The position numbers and the translations under genes are program-made. Shown here one piece after another: positions 1-10,324 of a stretch of DNA of 14,119 nucleotides. The DNA comes from Pirellulales bacterium. Its GTDB lineage: Bacteria; Planctomycetota; Planctomycetia; Pirellulales; JAICIG01. Numbering within the stretch: the stretch's first letter is position 1; the number at the start of each line of letters is the position of its first letter. The notes under the pieces were generated by a model. The model saw nothing but the letters and a program-made list of their open reading frames with translations, was not told the DNA's origin and searched no databases. The DNA is taken from positions 1 to 14,119 of the forward strand of contig DATLQY010000933.1 in assembly GCA_035534975.1 (NCBI GenBank), in the 5' to 3' direction.

Positions 1-267
1 GCGAATCGAACAAAGCCAGTCGCATACCACGACGGTTGGTTTCCGAAGTCGCGATTTGGTGGTCCCCTCCCGGTTCCAGGGCAACATGACTTTGTTCGGC
101 GGAAGAGGATCGTCAATTCTCGTGGAACCGACGACCACGGCAAACGGCTCGTCATCTTTGATTTCCTCCGTGGAAGTAAGCACGACCGCGGGGCGTCTCT
201 TCGTGGTCTTTCCGTCGGGGCTTGTCAAAAGTGCCCAGACGACACGGCCTTGCACGATCGCCGGCAT
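1..267 (-). CDS. PemK/MazF-family toxin (mRNA interferase-like), 3' end truncated by the window edge (89 codons visible)
   Basis: Manual minus-strand translation starting at ATG 267-265 gives MPAIVQGRVVWALLTSPDGKTTKRRPAVVLTSTEEIKDDEPFAVVVGSTRIDDPLPPNKVMLPWNREGTTKSRLRKPTVVVCDWLCSIR. GRVVWALLTSPDGKTTKRRPAVVLT aligns with the E. coli MazF N-terminus GDLIWVDFDPTKGSEQAGHRPAVVLS. PTVVVCDWLCSI matches the Kid/PemK VVRCDQPRTID region. An in-frame stop lies at 301-303, so 267 is the first ATG. No stop occurs before the window edge, which is why the ORF track does not list it. Confidence 0.8.
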   Translation of the reverse strand, partial: MPAIVQGRVVWALLTSPDGKTTKRRPAVVLTSTEEIKDDEPFAVVVGSTRIDDPLPPNKVMLPWNREGTTKSRLRKPTVVVCDWLCSIR

Positions 268-281
268 CGCTTCGCCCCCAT

Positions 282-884
282 TCAAAACGGCGACTCTTCT
301 TCATGTTCGAACCATTCCGGCGGCGGAGCTCGCTTGGCTGCCAAAGCCAACAGCCGCGCGTTTGAAGGAACGATGCGCTTAAGTTCCTCGACGGCCGCCG
401 CGTCTTCCAAATGGGCTTCGACGACCAATGCGGCCTCGACGGTCGGTTTTGCTTCCGCAATCGGACCATCGTAGGCTTTGGAGGCTGCAGCCTTGACGAA
501 GAATGGCAAAGCCAGCGTCTCGGTCCCATCAACGATCAGGTGGAACTGGTACGCGCCCAGTTCCCGAAATCCTACCATCAGGTTCGTCACGATGCTCGTC
601 CCGGCCGGCCCTTCGGGATTTAGACTGCTTCGTTTCGCGTTCAACTCCAAGTCCTCGCTCATGGGCAAGCGCTCACCATTGGGCGTCGTCAGTTCGACCC
701 GAAACTTGTGTCCGGTGCTCGGTTCGCCTGGCCGCAGGAGCAACCGGGCCACTAAAGCCAGCGGAGGCCCGACGAAGGGCAACGACGTCGCCTCCAGCCC
801 GTCGACGTCCGCTCCAAAAATGCAAAGCCGTCCGTCCTGAAGTTGACCGGCGGTGTTCGCCAAGAATGCGTAGGACAGTTCCAT
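282..884 (-). CDS. Hypothetical 200-aa protein, translationally coupled to the downstream MazF-like gene; candidate non-canonical antitoxin partner
   Basis: ORF of 200 aa with ordinary, non-R/P-biased composition. GGAGG lies 5 nt upstream of ATG 884. Its stop at 282-284 is 14 nt from the MazF-like start. The acidic C-terminal tail is PPEWFEHEEESPF. I recognise no domain. Confidence 0.6.
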   Translation of the reverse strand: MELSYAFLANTAGQLQDGRLCIFGADVDGLEATSLPFVGPPLALVARLLLRPGEPSTGHKFRVELTTPNGERLPMSEDLELNAKRSSLNPEGPAGTSIVTNLMVGFRELGAYQFHLIVDGTETLALPFFVKAAASKAYDGPIAEAKPTVEAALVVEAHLEDAAAVEELKRIVPSNARLLALAAKRAPPPEWFEHEEESPF

Positions 885-944
885 GATTTCCTCCCGGTAT
901 TCGACTTGCCTGGTGCCCTCGCCGAATTTGCGACGGTATGATCA

Positions 945-995
945 ACCTCATTATACGGCACGCGACGGGAAATGAGACATTTTCTCATGAGAAAG
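945..995 (-). promoter_or_regulatory. Candidate promoter for the 282..884 / MazF-like operon, with a palindromic operator
   Basis: Plus strand 950-955 reads attata, which is a perfect TATAAT on the minus strand, about 66 nt upstream of ATG 884. A 14-bp perfect palindrome tttctcatgagaaa at 981-994 overlaps the expected -35 region. An adjacent aatgagaca half-site lies at 971-979. Confidence 0.35.
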
Positions 996-1080
996 TGGTT
1001 GCCGCAGGTGCGAGAGCGCAAGCGATGCACCGGCTAGATATACTTCACGCGGCCACGAATGAGACACTTGCTTCAAGTGG

Positions 1081-1204
1081 GACGGCCTTCCTAGTTGGAC
1101 AGCGCCACTTTAGAAGCTAGGTAATATGAATCGACGTAAGTCGTTTCCTGATGGTGCCGACATTTTGCCCATTGAGACAAGTGGCGCTGTCCAACTAGGC
1201 CGTC
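1081..1204. repeat. Large inverted repeat: perfect 21-bp arms (1090-1110 and 1179-1199) around a 68-bp AT-richer spacer
   Basis: cctagttggacagcgccactt (1090-1110) is the reverse complement of aagtggcgctgtccaactagg (1179-1199). The extended arm is imperfect (gacggcc, with a 4-nt indel). The spacer contains cgacGTAAgtcg (1132-1143), a 4-bp stem with a GNRA loop. The nearby palindrome ggcctaggaaggcc lies at 1231-1244. Confidence 0.6.
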
Positions 1205-1256
1205 TGCCTAAAGGAGTTGGCGGCGCGGACGGCCTAGGAAGGCCATCCCACGACTG

Positions 1257-1341
1257 GCCGCGTGCAGTATAGCGACCGGGGCATCGCTTAGGCTCTGCCC
1301 CAGCCACCGTGAATGTCTCATTCTCGGCCGCGTGCAGTATC
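1257..1341. repeat. 15-bp direct repeat ggccgcgtgcagtat (1257-1271 and 1327-1341) flanking a hairpin ggggca...tgcccc (1277-1300)
   Basis: Both exact copies are read directly from the sequence. The hairpin between them is ggggcatcgcttaggctctgcccc. The third TGAGACA motif lies inverted at 1311-1320 (gaatgtctca). Confidence 0.55.
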
Positions 1342-1353
1342 AGCGCATGGTTG

Positions 1354-3582
1354 CTAATTCGCGGCGCCGCTCAAGGCCTTCTTGGCCTGCTGCTTGATCT
1401 TCTTGGCTTCCGTGGCATCGACATTCCAGCCGCGCGGCGGCCCGGGACAATGGACGACCTTGAACTGCAAAGTCACATTTTCGTCATTCGACGCCACGGC
1501 CCCAAATTGATCCAACGACCAGATGGCCAGGGGGCCATCGACGACGTGCGAGATCAAGTTGGGACGTGCCAGCAGCACGCCGCGATTGAACAACCCTTTT
1601 TCTCCCTCGAGCACCAACTCGATCGCGTCGCCTGGCCGCCAATCGAACGCCAGTCGGCCGTTCGCGTCGTCCTTCAGGTAGTCATGCTCGCTCTCGTATT
1701 CCTGGTTTTCGCCTGCCGCGAGCGTCCAGTCGTGCGCCGGCGTACTGGCCTGCGCGCGTCCCGACGCGCCCACGGTAATGACGCGGGTCGTACCGAGGCC
1801 GGCCTCGCGCGCCGCGTAGCCGCGTTCGATCCGTAGCGTCCACGGCGTGCCGGTTTGCGCCGCCTGGTACCAGCCCTTGAGCACCTTCTGTACGACTTCG
1901 TCCGGCTCATTGCGGATCACCACATCGGGGTCGGCGCCCGGCGCCGCGCAATTCACCCACACGCCTGCCGCCGTCCGCAACGCTTCGAGCCGTAGATTCG
2001 CGCGGCCGAGCCAGTCCTCCCAAGGCTCGCGACTCGCCGAGTCGCACAGCCGCTTCAACTCGGCGTCGGCGGACAGCCAGGGCTTGGCGCGCCGGCGCAG
2101 CGCTTCGATGCTCGCCCGCCACTCTTTGATCCGCGCGGCGACCGCCGGCTCCTTGATCAGCCACGATTCATAGAGTCTCGTGACATCGTTCGCCTGGTAC
2201 GGGTGCTTGACCGTGACTTTTTCCTCCCAGGCATTCCTGGCTTTCCTGCCGTCCTCAGCCGCGGCCTGGTCGGCGCTCTGCATGCCGGCACCGCTCGCCG
2301 GCGGCGGCACGCCCGCCACCTGTTGATTCAGTTCCGCCAGGGCGGCTCGGATCTCCCGCAGCTCTTCGTTTTTCTCGTTCACGATCGCTTCATCGAGCTG
2401 GCGTTCCATCTCGGTAATTCGGTTCGCTTGCGAGACGTTCGTCGCCTTGGCCTTGGCCAATTGGTCGCCGACTTCGATGCCCTTCCGCCTGGCGTCGGCC
2501 AGTTCCGTCGCCTGGCGCCGTACGAGGACCGAGAGGTAGACGCTCAAAGTACACGAGACCATCGCTACCGCGAGCGCCGCCGCCAGCCGGCGGATCTGGG
2601 CGCCGCGGCGCGCCGCATCCCATGACTTCAGTCGCCGCAATACGTCGCTCGCGTCGGAAGGCGACGCTTGAGATTGCCAAGTCCCTTTTGGCCCCAGCCG
2701 GCCGAAACCCGATGGGCCGGGCGCCGGTTGACCCAGGAGCAGTGCTACGACGGTGATGAACCGCCGAACGGGATTCGTCTGGTCGATCAACTCGCCCAGA
2801 CGCCTGGGGCGGTGCCGCCGCGCCAATCGCATTCGTAGCACCGGTTCGATTCTTGCCCAGAATTCGTCGACCGAACTCGCCCCGTCAGCATGTTCCAACA
2901 ACTCTTGGCGCCCCCCCAGGGCCAATTCACACGCGGAGAGGGCCAACCCTCGCAGGTCTTCCATTGGGCTCAAGGTTGCGGCGGGTTCGAGCACACCCAG
3001 CGACCGATAGACGCGCGATTCCGGATCTTCGACGCGGTGCCCCGACCAGGCGGCCAGCGCGCCCGCTACGGGACCATCGAGCCACACGGTCACGTCGTCC
3101 TTCTGATCATCGGATTCTTCGACGTAGATATTGCACGGCCGAACGTCGCCGTGGACGAGGTGGCGAGCATGCATTTCGGCGAGGCCCGCGAGCACTTGCT
3201 CGACGATCGACAGCCAGGCCGCTGGTCCGAAGGCGTCGCTTCGCTCGGCCATGAGCTTGGAAAGCGCTTCGTCGTGCCGATGTCCAACCAAGAACATGCC
3301 GCTCGGCGTCGTCGAGCCGGTCTCGACGGGCAGCGAAACGTGAAGAAGTTGAAGCCCGACGCGTTCGGCAAGCCAGGCTTCCAATCGCGGCTTCCAGCCA
3401 GGCCAATCGTCCCAGCCGTCGCTGGTCGAGGCCGGCGGCAGGAACTGTACCAGCCGTTTTTTCGCGGCACCGTTCCGTGAGTCGGTGGCCTCGAACTCGT
3501 CGCCGAGACAACCAGCGCCGCGTCGCGCGCGATCGAGCTTCAGCCCGGCCGGCAGCAGCTTCTGGTACTCGGTCATCTCCAT
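1354..3582 (-). CDS. Membrane-anchored Hanks-type Ser/Thr protein kinase (non-RD, HGD catalytic loop) with coiled-coil and a ~350-aa extracytoplasmic C-terminal domain of unknown function
   Basis: 742-aa ORF. The N-terminus has a G-loop-like GAGCLG, a candidate beta3 Lys in AAKKR, and the catalytic loop HGDVRPCN (canonical HRDLKPxN). One TM helix (LAAALAVAMVSCTLSVYLSVLV) is followed by an EELREIRAALAELNQQ coiled coil, then an unrecognised C-terminal domain. Confidence 0.8.
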   Translation of the reverse strand: MEMTEYQKLLPAGLKLDRARRGAGCLGDEFEATDSRNGAAKKRLVQFLPPASTSDGWDDWPGWKPRLEAWLAERVGLQLLHVSLPVETGSTTPSGMFLVGHRHDEALSKLMAERSDAFGPAAWLSIVEQVLAGLAEMHARHLVHGDVRPCNIYVEESDDQKDDVTVWLDGPVAGALAAWSGHRVEDPESRVYRSLGVLEPAATLSPMEDLRGLALSACELALGGRQELLEHADGASSVDEFWARIEPVLRMRLARRHRPRRLGELIDQTNPVRRFITVVALLLGQPAPGPSGFGRLGPKGTWQSQASPSDASDVLRRLKSWDAARRGAQIRRLAAALAVAMVSCTLSVYLSVLVRRQATELADARRKGIEVGDQLAKAKATNVSQANRITEMERQLDEAIVNEKNEELREIRAALAELNQQVAGVPPPASGAGMQSADQAAAEDGRKARNAWEEKVTVKHPYQANDVTRLYESWLIKEPAVAARIKEWRASIEALRRRAKPWLSADAELKRLCDSASREPWEDWLGRANLRLEALRTAAGVWVNCAAPGADPDVVIRNEPDEVVQKVLKGWYQAAQTGTPWTLRIERGYAAREAGLGTTRVITVGASGRAQASTPAHDWTLAAGENQEYESEHDYLKDDANGRLAFDWRPGDAIELVLEGEKGLFNRGVLLARPNLISHVVDGPLAIWSLDQFGAVASNDENVTLQFKVVHCPGPPRGWNVDATEAKKIKQQAKKALSGAAN

Positions 3583-3625: not shown

Positions 3626-3717
3626 TCTGTACGGAACGCCCTCCGTGGCGTTCCGCGGAAGGCCAACGAGTGCCGTGTACCCATTCGAGGAACGCCACGG
3701 AGGGCGTTCCCTACAGA
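3626..3717. repeat. Twin 22-bp hairpin elements in inverted orientation (3633-3654 and 3689-3710), with complementary loops
   Basis: ggaacgcc-ctccgt-ggcgttcc (3633-3654) and ggaacgcc-acggag-ggcgttcc (3689-3710). The second is the exact reverse complement of the first, including the loop. The flanks extend the inverted repeat to 29 bp with one mismatch (tctgtac versus tctgtag). It lies between the lipase gene end (3756) and the kinase start (3582). Confidence 0.6.
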
Positions 3718-3755
3718 CACCATTGCCCCGGCAATCGCCTCCAAGCGGGTGGTCG

Positions 3756-5015
3756 TCATTTCTCAGGCACATTCCAGCCTAGCGTTTCAAGCACCCATTG
3801 GAACAAATCCGCATCTTCGGGACGTTCGCCGGGTAAGGCCAGTAACTTGGTGTGGTTCAAATCGAAGATTCGCTCGCCGTCGGAGCCTTTCAGCCGGGCG
3901 CTGGCGACGGCCACCGCCCCGTCGCCGCGTCCGTCGCGCAGCTCGTCGCTGGCCAGCGCATCCAGCACCACCTGGCGGAATTCCTCGGGGACCTTCCGGC
4001 GGCGAAAGAAGTCAGTCAACTCGCGTTCGATCGCGGCGCGTTGTTCCTCCGCCAGAAAACTACGGCGGCCGATCGCCACATAGTACCGCACGCCCGCCGG
4101 GCGCCGCCCGGCCTCCAGCTCCTCGAGGAACTCGCTTCCAGGCCGCAGGTCTCTGGCGGCCTCGCCCAAGCCGTCGCGCAGGTTTTCGCCGCTGAACAGG
4201 GTGCCTGCGGGCAAAGCGCGTACCAGTTCGATCGACTCCTGGGCGCCGGCCAGGCGGGTGCCATGGTTGGGTGTGCCGAGCATGAACAGATCGGTGACGC
4301 ACGTCGGAGCATGGTCGGCGACCTCCAGCGCGTACCTCGCGACCAGCCCTCCCATGCTGTGGGCGACGATCACGAGCTTGAGCCGCTCGTACCGCTTGCA
4401 CAGGTCGCCCAATTCGCTCCTCAACCGGTCGCCGCTCCAGGCAATCGGACCGTCGTTCGGATAATCGAACAAGAGGGCCTGAACCTCCGTGTCGACACAG
4501 GCCTTGGCGAAGGGTTTCAAGTCGGCCGCGTCGGCTTCCAGGCCGTGGACCAGCAGCATGGTCCGGCGGTCGGGGTCGAAGCCGTCGGGCAGGTGAAGCC
4601 CTTTTTCGTCGGGCCACTCGCTTAGCGGGAGGTGCAGCAGTTTTTCGAGACGTTTCCGCAAGCGGCGCCGCACGCGGTCGTCTTCGCGGTTGGGCACTCC
4701 GATAATCAGCTTGTCGTCGTCGATCGAGACCCTGATGAGTCCGGCTTCGCCGGCCAGGACCAACGCCGCGCGTTCCAGCGTGGTCAGCTCGATCTTGCGG
4801 TCGCGGATGCGTTCGAGCGGATAGTGCGCGTGTAGTTTGCGGTTGCACTCGGCGCAGAATTCGCGAGGCGAGAAATAACGCCCTTCCTGAAGCGGAATCG
4901 TCAGGTCGATGAATTCATCGGCATTGGCCGGTGCGCGACTGAAGATCGAGACCGCGACGACGGCGAGGCAGGCGACGAGACGCAAGGGTCGAGTTCTTGG
5001 GGATGCGGCGATCAT
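3756..5015 (-). CDS. Secreted alpha/beta-hydrolase (lipase class 2 / PGAP1-like esterase family) with a ~150-aa N-terminal domain of unknown function
   Basis: The nucleophile elbow AHSMGG matches that of Bacillus LipA (AHSMGG). LGTPNHGT resembles the GTPHHG motif of PGAP1/DUF676-type hydrolases, and an LLVHGL oxyanion region is present. The ORF track begins at 5108, but the internal ATG at 5015 starts a clear Sec signal peptide (MIAASPRTRPLRLVACLAVVAVSIFSRAPANA), so 5015 is preferred. Confidence 0.8.
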   Translation of the reverse strand: MIAASPRTRPLRLVACLAVVAVSIFSRAPANADEFIDLTIPLQEGRYFSPREFCAECNRKLHAHYPLERIRDRKIELTTLERAALVLAGEAGLIRVSIDDDKLIIGVPNREDDRVRRRLRKRLEKLLHLPLSEWPDEKGLHLPDGFDPDRRTMLLVHGLEADAADLKPFAKACVDTEVQALLFDYPNDGPIAWSGDRLRSELGDLCKRYERLKLVIVAHSMGGLVARYALEVADHAPTCVTDLFMLGTPNHGTRLAGAQESIELVRALPAGTLFSGENLRDGLGEAARDLRPGSEFLEELEAGRRPAGVRYYVAIGRRSFLAEEQRAAIERELTDFFRRRKVPEEFRQVVLDALASDELRDGRGDGAVAVASARLKGSDGERIFDLNHTKLLALPGERPEDADLFQWVLETLGWNVPEK

Positions 5016-9703: not shown

Positions 9704-10324
9704 ATGACTACGTTCTATGTTGTTTGCGCTGTTTTGGGCGGGACCGTTCTTGCTTGCCAGTTTGTGATGACGCTCTTGGGTCTGGACCACGCTGACGTGC
9801 CGGATGACGTTCCCCATGATTTCGGCCATGACCTTGCTCACGGCGGTCAGGATTCCGCCCACGACGCGCATTCGGACCATAACCAGTCGTGGTTTTTCGG
9901 GGTATTGACGTTCCGTACAGTGGTGGCGGCATTGACGTTTTTCGGCATTGCCGGACTTGCAGGCACGTCGGCCGATTGGCCTACGCCCTGGACTTTGGTG
10001 GTCAGCACGGGGGCCGGCGCGGGGGCCATGTTCGGCGTACATTGGATGATGCAGGCATTGCACAAGCTCCGTGCTGACGGCACGGTTCGTATCCAACGCG
10101 CGGTGGGCCGGCCGGCCAGCGTTTACCTGCGTATTCCGTCGCGGAAGAGCGGCGTCGGCAAAGTACAAGTGAACGTGCAGAACCGCACGATGGAATATGA
10201 GGCCATGACTTCCCAGGAGGAGGAACTCCCCGTCGGAGCGCGGGTCGTGGTGGTCGACGTCGTCGGACCTGAAACCGTCGAAGTCGAATTGGCGCCCGAC
10301 CATGAAAGGACCTCCCATGTCTAA
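9704..10324 (+). CDS. NfeD-like membrane protein (YqiJ/DUF1449-like), the usual partner of SPFH/flotillin proteins
   Basis: GGAG lies 9 nt upstream of ATG 9704. The N-terminal TM helix is followed by a His/Asp-rich loop (HDFGHDLAHGGQDSAHDAHSDH), further TM helices, and a C-terminal OB-fold-like soluble domain. The gene immediately precedes and overlaps a flotillin-like gene, which is the classic yqiJK / yuaF-floT arrangement. The ORF track starts at 9650, but the N-terminus from 9704 is more credible. Confidence 0.75.
   Translation: MTTFYVVCAVLGGTVLACQFVMTLLGLDHADVPDDVPHDFGHDLAHGGQDSAHDAHSDHNQSWFFGVLTFRTVVAALTFFGIAGLAGTSADWPTPWTLVVSTGAGAGAMFGVHWMMQALHKLRADGTVRIQRAVGRPASVYLRIPSRKSGVGKVQVNVQNRTMEYEAMTSQEEELPVGARVVVVDVVGPETVEVELAPDHERTSHV

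What the first reader, a model, noticed from the sequence alone, without database searches (positions are those of the whole stretch)
885..1353. AT-richer, repeat-dense 470-bp noncoding island: three TGAGACA(T/C)T motifs, a 21-bp inverted repeat with a structured 68-nt spacer, and 15-bp direct repeats
In a ~67% GC genome, this island between the kinase gene's 3' end and the TA-like operon's 5' end is markedly AT-richer. It holds (i) TGAGACAtt at 973-981, TGAGACAct at 1059-1067 and an inverted copy at 1312-1320; (ii) a perfect 21-bp inverted repeat (1090-1110 / 1179-1199) whose spacer carries a GNRA-capped mini-hairpin cgacGTAAgtcg; (iii) the palindrome ggcctaggaaggcc (1231-1244); and (iv) exact 15-bp direct repeats ggccgcgtgcagtat 70 bp apart around another hairpin. 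This density of symmetric elements does not look like a simple promoter plus terminator. It could be a structured sRNA, a relic of a miniature inverted-repeat element, or an array of binding sites for a regulator, possibly the TA antitoxin.
Basis: seen in the sequence. Interest (0 to 1): 0.55.

Follow-up and report, generated by a model that had tools for sequence, protein, structure and literature searches.

The report
Three nested miniature transposons (MITEs)
The repeat-dense island is three small non-coding transposon relics inserted one inside another between two genes of a Pirellulales (Planctomycetota) bacterium; this is an ordinary kind of selfish-DNA scar, not a dedicated regulatory RNA or operator array.

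Summary
The motifs are real, apart from one-base coordinate slips, but they are not independent. Window 954-1339 is a stack of three nested MITEs that together fold as one ~400-nt hairpin (z -10.7 / -12.4).

- **M1 (954-1038 + 1272-1339, 155 bp).** It belongs to a ~152-bp palindromic MITE family. That family has at least 70 hit stretches, with 166 termini in 517 kb, in the host MAG GCA_035531595.1.
- **M2 (1041-1090 + 1199-1269, 125 bp).** It has the same type of terminal inverted repeat (TIR). It sits in the loop TA of M1 with a perfect TA/TA duplication.
- **M3 (1095-1194, 100 bp).** It has unrelated TIRs (TTGGACAGCGCCACTT) and sits in a CTAG of M2, with CTAG on both sides.

The M1/M2 TIR (TACnnCACGCGnnnnnnAATGAGACA) bounds full-length IS630-family elements in other planctomycete MAGs. 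Of 69 paired elements, 49 have TA on both flanks. The M3 TIR bounds an IS701-family element and occurs in more than 118 metagenome contigs.

Rfam finds nothing, and a paralogous DUF6941-PemK locus lacks the island.

The sRNA and operator options are not supported. This is a new member of a known kind, of low interest.

The parts
952..953 (.). TA target-site duplication, left copy, of outer MITE M1
   Evidence: Sequence cat|TA|TACGGC. TA flanks both ends in 49 of 69 paired elements of this TIR type.
954..1038 (+). M1 left arm (IS630-type MITE).
   Evidence: Matches 64 loci at 75-80% identity. Reconstructed M1 (155 bp) is 85-88% identical to canonical 152-bp copies.
1039..1040 (.). TA duplication, left copy, of M2. 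It is the TA of the M1 loop, ctagaTAgcga.
   Evidence: The consensus loop of 44 family copies reads CCGGCTAGATAGCGACCGG. The window reads ctagaTA[TAC...GTA]TAgcga.
1041..1090 (+). M2 left arm.
   Evidence: The TIR is identical in type to that of the IS630-family IS in L045.
1091..1094 (.). CTAG, left flank of M3 (target-site duplication, or TA within CTAG)
   Evidence: CTAG is on both sides of M3. The full-length IS701-family element L159 is flanked the same way.
1095..1194 (+). M3, a 100-bp IS701-type MITE. The TIRs are TTGGACAGCGCCACTT (1095-1110) and its complement (1179-1194).
   Evidence: The 21-mer is found in more than 118 metagenome contigs, with unrelated sequence before it and divergent interiors after it. 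100-bp relatives are L123, L163, L181, L190 and L199, with 75% mean column identity and a conserved CGTAAGTC.
1195..1198 (.). CTAG, right flank of M3
1199..1269 (+). M2 right arm.
   Evidence: Removing M3 plus one CTAG gives a 125-bp hairpin of -79.3 kcal/mol in which ggccttcctagg pairs with cctaggaaggcc.
1270..1271 (.). TA duplication, right copy, of M2
   Evidence: Sequence GCAGTA|TA|gcga.
1272..1339 (+). M1 right arm. The TIR is 1314-1339 (reverse complement TACTGCACGCGGCCGAGAATGAGACA). It contains the inverted TGAGACA copy and the second 15-bp direct repeat.
   Evidence: Region 1271-1340 matches 85 loci, at up to 98.6% identity.
1340..1341 (.). Right flank of M1, TC (a degenerate copy of the TA duplication)
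   Evidence: One-sided TA flanks are the commonest exception in the census.
950..956 (-). GTATAAT created at the junction of the M1 end (GTA), the TA duplication and flanking AT. It lies 65 nt upstream of the DUF6941 ATG and is a -10-like box by inference only.
   Evidence: Sequence. The paralogous locus L006 has TACAAT at the homologous place. The promoter scan found no full sigma-70 match.
1354..3582 (-). Upstream co-directional gene, a 742-aa ORF with sub-threshold kinase hits. Its stop codon is 12 nt from the flanking TC dinucleotide at the M1 right end.
282..884 (-). Downstream gene, a DUF6941 protein (200 aa). It is followed by a PemK/MazF-like ORF (1-267, cut by the window end).

Best explanation
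The island is a stack of three non-autonomous DNA transposons (MITEs), each inserted inside the previous one. It sits in what was originally a spacer of about 83 nt between the 742-aa kinase-like gene and the DUF6941-PemK gene pair.

Inferred order of events:
1. M1, a ~152-bp almost fully palindromic MITE with 26-27-bp IS630-type TIRs, inserted at a TA 67 nt upstream of the DUF6941 start codon.
2. M2, a 125-bp hairpin MITE with the same TIR type, inserted at the TA in the loop of M1.
3. M3, a 100-bp MITE with IS701-type TIRs, inserted at the CTAG (CCTAGG) in the left arm of M2.

Each element is itself a hairpin, and each insertion hit the loop or stem of the one before. The sum therefore reads as one giant imperfect palindrome, dense in direct and inverted repeats and slightly AT-richer than the genome.

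What is shown: the boundaries, the duplications, the copy number, and the link of each TIR type to a transposase family. What is inferred: mobilisation in trans by IS630- and IS701-family transposases that recognise the TIRs, and any effect on the neighbouring genes (a hairpin in a read-through transcript, or a junction-made -10 box).
For: (1) The 26-27-nt unit occurs at 954, 1041 and 1339 (reverse strand), with a truncated copy at 1269 (reverse strand).

Seventy are from the MAG that carries this locus. The rest are from other Planctomycetota: Pirellulales, Planctomycetaceae, Gemmataceae, Schlesneria and Kuenenia.

(3) Homology starts sharply at (T)ATAC with unrelated upstream flanks. There are 69 paired elements with a modal length of 152 bp, and 49 have TA on both sides.

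(4) Full-length elements carry the same TIRs and TA duplications. L045 3685-4839 encodes a 368-aa protein with HTH and DDE_3 domains that scores 198.7 bits against NCBIfam transpos_IS630 (cut-off 100). L016 is a 1541-bp element with a transposase 52% identical over its C-terminal 216 residues.

(5) Excising M2 restores the family's consensus loop CTAGATAGCGA. Excising M3 restores a perfect mirror of M2's other arm. Reconstructed M1 is 85-88% identical to canonical copies.

(6) The M3 terminus occurs in more than 118 metagenome contigs, many at contig ends. It bounds the full-length element L159 1083-2750, which scores 214 bits against transpos_IS701 and has CTAG on both flanks. 100-bp relatives of M3 have unrelated flanks.

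(7) A Logan assembly contig breaks inside the M1 TIR.

(8) The paralogous DUF6941-PemK locus lacks the island.
Against: - No IS630- or IS701-family transposase was found in the 517 kb of the host MAG that I fetched, so current mobility in this genome is not shown.
- The interior of M2 has no other copy in the fetched DNA and is only 55-65% identical to the compared MITEs that carry the same TIR type, including the 139-bp subfamily. Its family status rests on its TIRs and the TA/TA duplication.
- The right flank of M1 is TC, not TA.
- M1's two arms have diverged unequally (98.6% against 75-80% identity to other copies), which a single simple insertion does not explain.
- No true empty site at this exact locus was recovered.
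Confidence: 0.93

Rival explanations
1. A MITE stack that has been co-opted. The 400-nt hairpin would act in RNA, as a terminator, insulator or RNase III target between the kinase-like gene and the DUF6941-PemK pair. Alternatively, the M1 junction (GTATAAT, 950-956 on the - strand) would serve as the promoter of the downstream pair.
For: - Both flanking genes are on the same strand, so a read-through transcript would contain the hairpin.
- Without the stack the genes would be about 83 nt apart.
- The junction forms GTATAAT where the paralogue has TACAAT.
- Bacterial MITEs are reported to be transcribed and to alter the mRNA stability of neighbouring genes (PMC3733652, background section).
Against: - The scans found no sigma-70-like promoter or intrinsic terminator.
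- There is no transcript data.
- Covariation among 44 copies is essentially limited to one TIR pair.
- By eye, from the flank listing, flanks that would form TATAAT at other copies look no commoner than chance. This was not formally counted.
Confidence: 0.12
2. A dedicated structured non-coding RNA (sRNA or cis-regulatory leader) specific to this locus.
For: Very stable predicted fold (z -10.7 / -12.4). Intergenic position.
Against: - No Rfam family matches.
- The fold is equally good on both strands, with 8 and 11 G-U pairs, as expected for a DNA palindrome.
- Every helix is accounted for by the arms of elements that occur at dozens of unrelated loci.
- The paralogous locus lacks it.
Confidence: 0.03
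3. An array of operator sites for a regulator, for example the antitoxin of the DUF6941-PemK pair, with TGAGACA as the recognition motif.
For: Repeated motifs lie upstream of a TA-like pair. One motif copy lies near the putative -10 box.
Against: - The motif is the inner part of a transposon TIR found at least 166 times in 517 kb of the host genome, next to unrelated genes.
- The second DUF6941-PemK locus in the same MAG has no intact copy of the motif upstream, only a degenerate TIR trace.
- The fourth TGAGACA (1172-1178) is a chance resemblance inside M3. Other members of the M3 family read ATTGTGAAAAG there.
Confidence: 0.02
4. A cluster of REP/REPIN elements mobilised by a RAYT (IS200/IS605-like tyrosine transposase).
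For: High-copy intergenic palindromes that occur as inverted pairs forming hairpins.
Against: - There is no GTAG or CGTC tag.
- The units are 26-27-nt non-palindromic termini, not 20-40-nt palindromes.
- Target-site duplications are present.
- The same termini bound DDE-transposase IS elements.
- No RAYT-like ORF appears among the ten window ORFs scanned.
Confidence: 0.01

Closest known systems
IS630-family MITEs, e.g. Nezha of cyanobacteria (listed among bacterial MITEs in PMC3733652). The IS630-Tc1-mariner group has the classical TA duplication (PMC7386202).
   Same: - Small (125-155 bp) non-coding elements with TIRs of about 26 bp and a TA target-site duplication.
- High copy number.
- TIRs shared with full-length elements that encode an HTH + DDE_3 IS630-family transposase.
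   Different: - The sequence family was not found in the literature I could search.
- It occurs in Planctomycetota, and the TIR is conserved across several orders.
- M1 is palindromic over nearly its whole length, not only at the TIRs.
- No cognate transposase was seen in the sampled part of the host genome.
Correia / NEMIS elements of Neisseria (own knowledge for the details; NEMIS is listed as a MITE in PMC3733652)
   Same: - Elements of about 100-155 bp with TIRs of about 26 bp.
- TA duplication.
- Hundreds of intergenic copies.
- They fold into strong hairpins in transcripts and can create promoters at their junctions.
   Different: - The sequence is unrelated.
- Here a cognate IS630-family transposase type is identified.
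- No functional data exist for the planctomycete family.
IS701-family insertion sequences (NCBIfam NF033540) and MITEs derived from them
   Same: M3 has the same termini (TTGGACAGCGCCACTT) and the same CTAG flanks as the full-length IS701-family element in L159. It also keeps the subterminal CGTAAGTC motif seen near the ends of full-length copies.
   Different: - M3 is 100 bp long and non-coding.
- I could not verify the family's canonical duplication length in the literature. My data cannot separate a 4-bp CTAG duplication from a TA duplication within CTAG.
REP / REPIN elements with RAYT transposases (PMC3733652)
   Same: High-copy extragenic palindromes that form hairpins.
   Different: No GTAG or CGTC tag. 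Target-site duplications are present. The elements are linked to DDE transposases, not to RAYT.

Membership tests
[quoted passage not shown] | Small size (about 70-300 bp) and no coding capacity | tested here: met
   M1 is 155 bp, M2 125 bp and M3 100 bp after reconstruction. The only ORFs inside are 60 and 65 aa, and they span element junctions. Definition from PMC3733652.
[quoted passage not shown] | Terminal inverted repeats of 15-30 bp | tested here: met
   M1 has 26-nt TIRs at 954-979 and 1314-1339. M2 has 1041-1066 and a truncated 1255-1269. M3 has 16-nt perfect TIRs at 1095-1110 and 1179-1194.
[quoted passage not shown] | Multiple dispersed copies with unrelated flanks | tested here: met
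   M1 type: at least 70 stretches and 166 termini in the host MAG. M3 type: more than 118 metagenome contigs and five 100-bp relatives. The interior of M2 has no second copy in the fetched DNA.
[quoted passage not shown] | Target-site duplication | tested here: met
   M2 has TA/TA, M3 has CTAG/CTAG and M1 has TA/TC. In the census, 49 of 69 paired elements have TA/TA.
[quoted passage not shown] | TIRs shared with an autonomous IS whose transposase could mobilise it | tested here: met
   L045 and L016 (IS630 family) and L159 (IS701 family) carry the same termini. None of these is in the host MAG.
[quoted passage not shown] | Empty versus filled site polymorphism, or observed transposition | tested here: inconclusive
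   Internal 'empty sites' exist. The canonical M1 loop without M2 is seen in 44 copies, and the uninterrupted CCTAGG is present in M2's other arm. No orthologous locus without M1 was recovered: all five assemblies carry it, and the paralogue L006 is too rearranged to serve.
IS630 family (M1, M2) | TA dinucleotide target and duplication | tested here: met
   The family property is taken from PMC7386202.
IS630 family (M1, M2) | Cognate transposase with HTH + DDE_3, matching NCBIfam transpos_IS630 | tested here: met
   L045 ORF: DDE_3 at 7.9e-22 and transpos_IS630 at 198.7 bits against a cut-off of 100.
IS701 family (M3) | Termini identical to those of an element encoding an IS701-family transposase | tested here: met
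   L159: transpos_IS701 at 214.1 bits against a cut-off of 150, and DDE_5 at 9.6e-50. The ORF is frameshifted.
IS701 family (M3) | 4-bp target-site duplication (own recollection of the ISfinder summary) | tested here: inconclusive
   CTAG lies on both flanks in the window and in L159. The search pattern itself contained CCTAG, so the length of the duplication (4 bp, or TA within CTAG) cannot be resolved. Literature look-ups failed.
REP/REPIN-RAYT | 20-40-bp palindromic unit with a GTAG or CGTC tag, no duplication, and an associated RAYT gene | tested here: not met
   No tag is present, duplications are present, and the termini are linked to DDE transposases. Definition from PMC3733652.
Known structured RNA family (Rfam) | Match to a covariance model at gathering score | tested here: not met
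   0 hits at gathering threshold over the whole window. The best E-value-mode hits are miRNA models at 19 bits against 67-77 needed.

The most novel reading that the evidence does not exclude
The MITE stack may not be inert. Its insertion would have split a former kinase-DUF6941-PemK co-transcription unit. The 400-nt hairpin would now insulate or process the transcript, and the M1 junction (GTATAAT) would supply a new promoter for the toxin-antitoxin-like pair. In addition, recombination between dispersed M1 copies would produce real genome rearrangements such as the alternative KdpD junction seen in the NCBI MAG (L001).
Probability: 0.12. Interest if true: 0.4.

Novelty: new member of a known kind. 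Interest (0 to 1): 0.2.

Why it matters
The main value is for annotation. It explains a puzzling repeat-dense island as three nested MITEs. It also gives consensus termini for two abundant mobile-element families in Planctomycetota: IS630-type TACTTCACGCGGCCnnnAATGAGACA and IS701-type TTGGACAGCGCCACTT. These termini can be used to mask repeats, to explain contig breaks and possible chimeric joins in planctomycete MAGs, and to avoid calling such hairpins as sRNAs or operators. A possible effect on expression of the adjacent DUF6941-PemK pair is of secondary interest and untested.

Tried and rejected
- **Rfam, gathering and permissive modes:** nothing meaningful.
- **tRNA/tmRNA scan:** none found.
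- **Sigma-70 promoter and intrinsic-terminator scans of 700-1600:** none found.
- **Strand asymmetry of G-U pairs as a sign of a transcribed structured RNA:** 8 against 11, so no asymmetry.
- **Covariation among 44 distinct M1 copies:** 94.7% of cells are paired against 94.1% in shuffles. The double changes come essentially from one TIR position that marks subfamilies, so this is not evidence for a selected RNA structure.
- **Search for other copies of M2's interior and for a transposase in 517 kb of host-MAG stretches:** none found.
- **Contig look-up for P0001, the 99%-identical DUF6941 protein:** not on record.
- **Literature check of the IS701 duplication length and the FEMS IS review:** not retrievable.
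- **Literature on planctomycete MITEs:** nothing specific.
- **REP/RAYT, CRISPR-like array and integron attC readings:** rejected on anatomy (non-palindromic termini, target-site duplications, DDE transposases).
- **The fourth TGAGACA at 1172-1178:** judged a chance resemblance inside M3.

Full report
**Observation**

The island lies between the stop codon of a 742-aa ORF (1354-3582, - strand; only sub-threshold kinase hits) and the ATG of a DUF6941 gene (282-884, -). That gene is followed by a PemK/MazF-like ORF cut by the window end.

- TGAGACAct is at 1060-1068.
- The 15-mers are at 1256-1270 and 1326-1340.
- 'ggcctaggaaggcc' is a 5-bp stem with a 4-nt loop rather than a palindrome.
- The island is 56.3% GC against 63.8% for the rest of the window.

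The motifs exceed chance. Region 940-1353 folds at about -210 kcal/mol on either strand, with z-scores of -10.7 and -12.4.

**The motifs are parts of larger units**

The repeat finder showed that TGAGACA and the 15-mer belong to one unit of about 27 nt, ATACnnCACGCGGCCnnnGAATGAGACA. It is present at 953-981 (+), 1040-1068 (+) and 1312-1340 (-), and in truncated form at 1256-1270 (-). The inverted repeats are strictly nested around a centre near 1150.

**The unit is the terminus of a high-copy mobile element**

- The identical locus occurs in three ENA assemblies and one JGI assembly. It also occurs in the Pirellulales MAG GCA_035531595.1.
- A second contig of that MAG carries a solo copy of the unit between unrelated genes.
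Seventy are from this same MAG. The rest are from other Planctomycetota: Pirellulales, Planctomycetaceae, Gemmataceae, Schlesneria and Kuenenia. There are also three contigs of a 'Calditrichaceae' bin, plus a 'Chitinophaga' bin contig whose repeat and ~150 nt of flanking sequence are identical to a Kuenenia contig.
- In all copies similarity begins sharply at (T)ATAC, and the upstream flanks are unrelated.
- Pairing termini gave 69 elements with a modal length of 152 bp. Forty-nine have TA on both flanks, and nearly all the others have TA on one flank.
- The 517 kb of host stretches hold 166 termini.
- A Logan contig of the kinase-like gene ends inside the TIR, a typical assembly break at a repeat.

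**The cognate transposase type**

In a Gemmataceae MAG (L045) the same termini, with TA duplications, bound a 1155-bp element that interrupts a glycosyltransferase-like ORF. It encodes a 368-aa protein with HTH_23/29/32 and DDE_3 domains, and it scores 198.7 bits against NCBIfam transpos_IS630 (cut-off 100). A Pirellulales MAG (L016) has a 1541-bp element with a transposase 52% identical over its C-terminal 216 residues. A TA duplication is the classical signature of the IS630-Tc1-mariner group (PMC7386202). No transposase was found in the fetched host stretches.

**Decomposition of the island**

The consensus of 44 distinct host copies reads ...GATGCCCCGGCTAGATAGCGACCGGGGCATC.... The window reads ...ccggctagaTA[TACTTCACG...GCAGTA]TAgcgaccgg.... 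A second element (M2, 1041-1269) with the same TIR type therefore sits in the loop TA of the outer element (M1, 954-1038 + 1272-1339), with a perfect TA/TA duplication.

The sequence ggccttc-CTAG-[TTGGACAGCGCCACTT...AAGTGGCGCTGTCCAA]-CTAG-gccgtc becomes ggccttcCTAGgccgtc when the element and one CTAG are removed. That is exactly the mirror of M2's other arm (ggcctaggaaggcc, 1231-1244).

The reconstructed elements are:
- M2: a 125-nt hairpin of -79.3 kcal/mol.
- M1: 155 bp, 85-88% identical to canonical copies.

**The third element**

The boundary is sharp, the interiors are diverse, and many hits lie at contig ends.

In L159 the same termini, with CTAG on both sides, bound a ~1.67-kb element. 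Its frameshifted ORF scores 214 bits against NCBIfam transpos_IS701 (cut-off 150) and matches Pfam DDE_5.

Five 100-bp relatives of M3 with unrelated flanks align at 75% mean column identity. The same motif is subterminal in full-length copies.

**Every listed feature is accounted for**

|---|---|
| Three TGAGACA motifs | Inner parts of three IS630-type TIRs. The fourth TIR is truncated. The extra TGAGACA at 1172 is a chance match inside M3. |
| 15-bp direct repeats | Outer ends of the right TIRs of M2 and M1 |
| 21-bp inverted repeat | M3 TIRs plus CTAG |
| Structured spacer | Interior of M3 |
| ggcctaggaaggcc | The uninterrupted mirror of M3's target site |
| Lower GC and giant hairpin | Follow from stacking palindromic elements |

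**Rival readings**

- *Dedicated sRNA.* No Rfam family matches. There is no strand asymmetry in G-U pairs. Covariation among copies comes essentially from one TIR position that marks subfamilies. A dedicated sRNA is therefore unlikely.
- *Antitoxin operator array.* This is contradicted by the dispersed copies, and by the paralogous DUF6941 (79% identical)-PemK locus in the same MAG, which lacks the island.
- *REP/RAYT.* This fails on the tag, the unit shape, the duplications and the transposase type (definition in PMC3733652).

**What remains inferred**

- Without the stack, the kinase-like stop codon and the DUF6941 ATG would be about 83 nt apart on the same strand.
- The insertion places a 400-nt hairpin in any read-through transcript.
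- The M1 end (GTA), the TA duplication and flanking AT create GTATAAT 65 nt upstream of the ATG, where the paralogue has TACAAT.
- Whether either matters is untested, and the scans give no support.

**Unexplained**

- The right arm of M1 is 98.6% identical to other copies, but the left arm is only 75-80% identical.
- The NCBI MAG contig (L001) is identical up to the inner part of that right arm. It then continues with a deleted TIR variant and a different neighbour, a divergent KdpD/Usp gene.
- Recombination between M1 copies, or an assembly chimera, could explain both observations. I cannot tell which.

**Verdict**

This is an ordinary though neatly layered case of nested MITEs from two IS families. 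I found no published description of these planctomycete families in the searchable literature. It is therefore a new member of a known kind, of low general interest.

Noticed in passing
L001:9541-9600 (NCBI MAG GCA_035531595.1, contig DATKSN010000086), corresponding to window ~1311-1340: The MAG contig is 100% identical to the window from the DUF6941 side up to the inner part of M1's right arm. It then reads ...gatgaTA|TACTTCACG|GTGGCTGGGG, a TIR with a 23-nt internal deletion between two TTCACG repeats. After that it continues into a divergent KdpD/Usp gene instead of the kinase-like gene. This is either MITE-mediated rearrangement or an assembly chimera at a repeat. The deleted variant is unique among the 234 fetched loci.
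   Followed up: partly
L006:8874-10884 (same MAG, contig DATKSN010000149): This is a paralogous segment: a fragment homologous to the middle of the 742-aa gene, then DUF6941 (79% identical), then PemK. Homology to the kinase-like gene stops exactly at a degenerate solo IS630-type TIR (aatgtttcgttcccggccgcatgaagtg, ~9722-9750). That suggests an IS/MITE-adjacent deletion. Upstream homology to the window runs up to a TACAAT box.
   Followed up: partly
window 1-267 and 282-884 (- strand); L006:9900-10884: A DUF6941 protein is paired directly upstream of a PemK/MazF-like toxin ORF, with a 14-nt gap, in two paralogous loci. DUF6941 may be the antitoxin partner of this toxin. Homologues are very few: 3 hits among 5.8 billion clusters.
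   Followed up: no
window 953-1039 versus 1271-1340: The two arms of M1 have aged very differently. The right arm is up to 98.6% identical to other genomic copies, the left arm only 75-80%. Gene conversion or recombination of the right arm is possible. This is unexplained.
   Followed up: no
host-MAG loci, e.g. L008:~210-290, L062, L097, L109 flank; metagenome loci L124, L138, L140, L206, L221: A further palindromic module (...CCCGMAGCGCAAGCRAG...CTYGCTTGCGCTKCGGG...) recurs 47 times in the host stretches. It forms the interior of MITEs with either the IS630-type or the IS701-type termini. It is either a shared hairpin cargo or yet another nested element family. It is not present in the window.
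   Followed up: no
L044 (bin labelled Chitinophaga) and L105 (Candidatus Kuenenia); L022, L024, L051 ('Calditrichaceae MAG_33'): L044 and L105 are identical across the repeat and ~150 nt of flanking sequence, so the Chitinophaga-labelled contig is probably mis-binned. Three copies of a 139-141-bp MITE with the planctomycete TIR in a Calditrichaceae bin suggest either mis-binning or horizontal spread.
   Followed up: no
L045:3162-6028: The full-length IS630-family element (3685-4839) interrupts a glycosyltransferase-like ORF. The reading frame continues on both sides of the insertion.
   Followed up: partly
L019:~3030-3058 and L052:~690-730: Short tandem heptamer repeats (gtcattt)n lie immediately next to M1 copies at two unrelated host loci.
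   Followed up: no
L234:2303-2345; L011, L040, L058, L075, L107, L112 (CAYSCH01 contig ends); many of L113-L230: Contigs very often end within or just after these TIRs. These two element families are a recurrent cause of fragmentation in planctomycete metagenome assemblies.
   Followed up: partly
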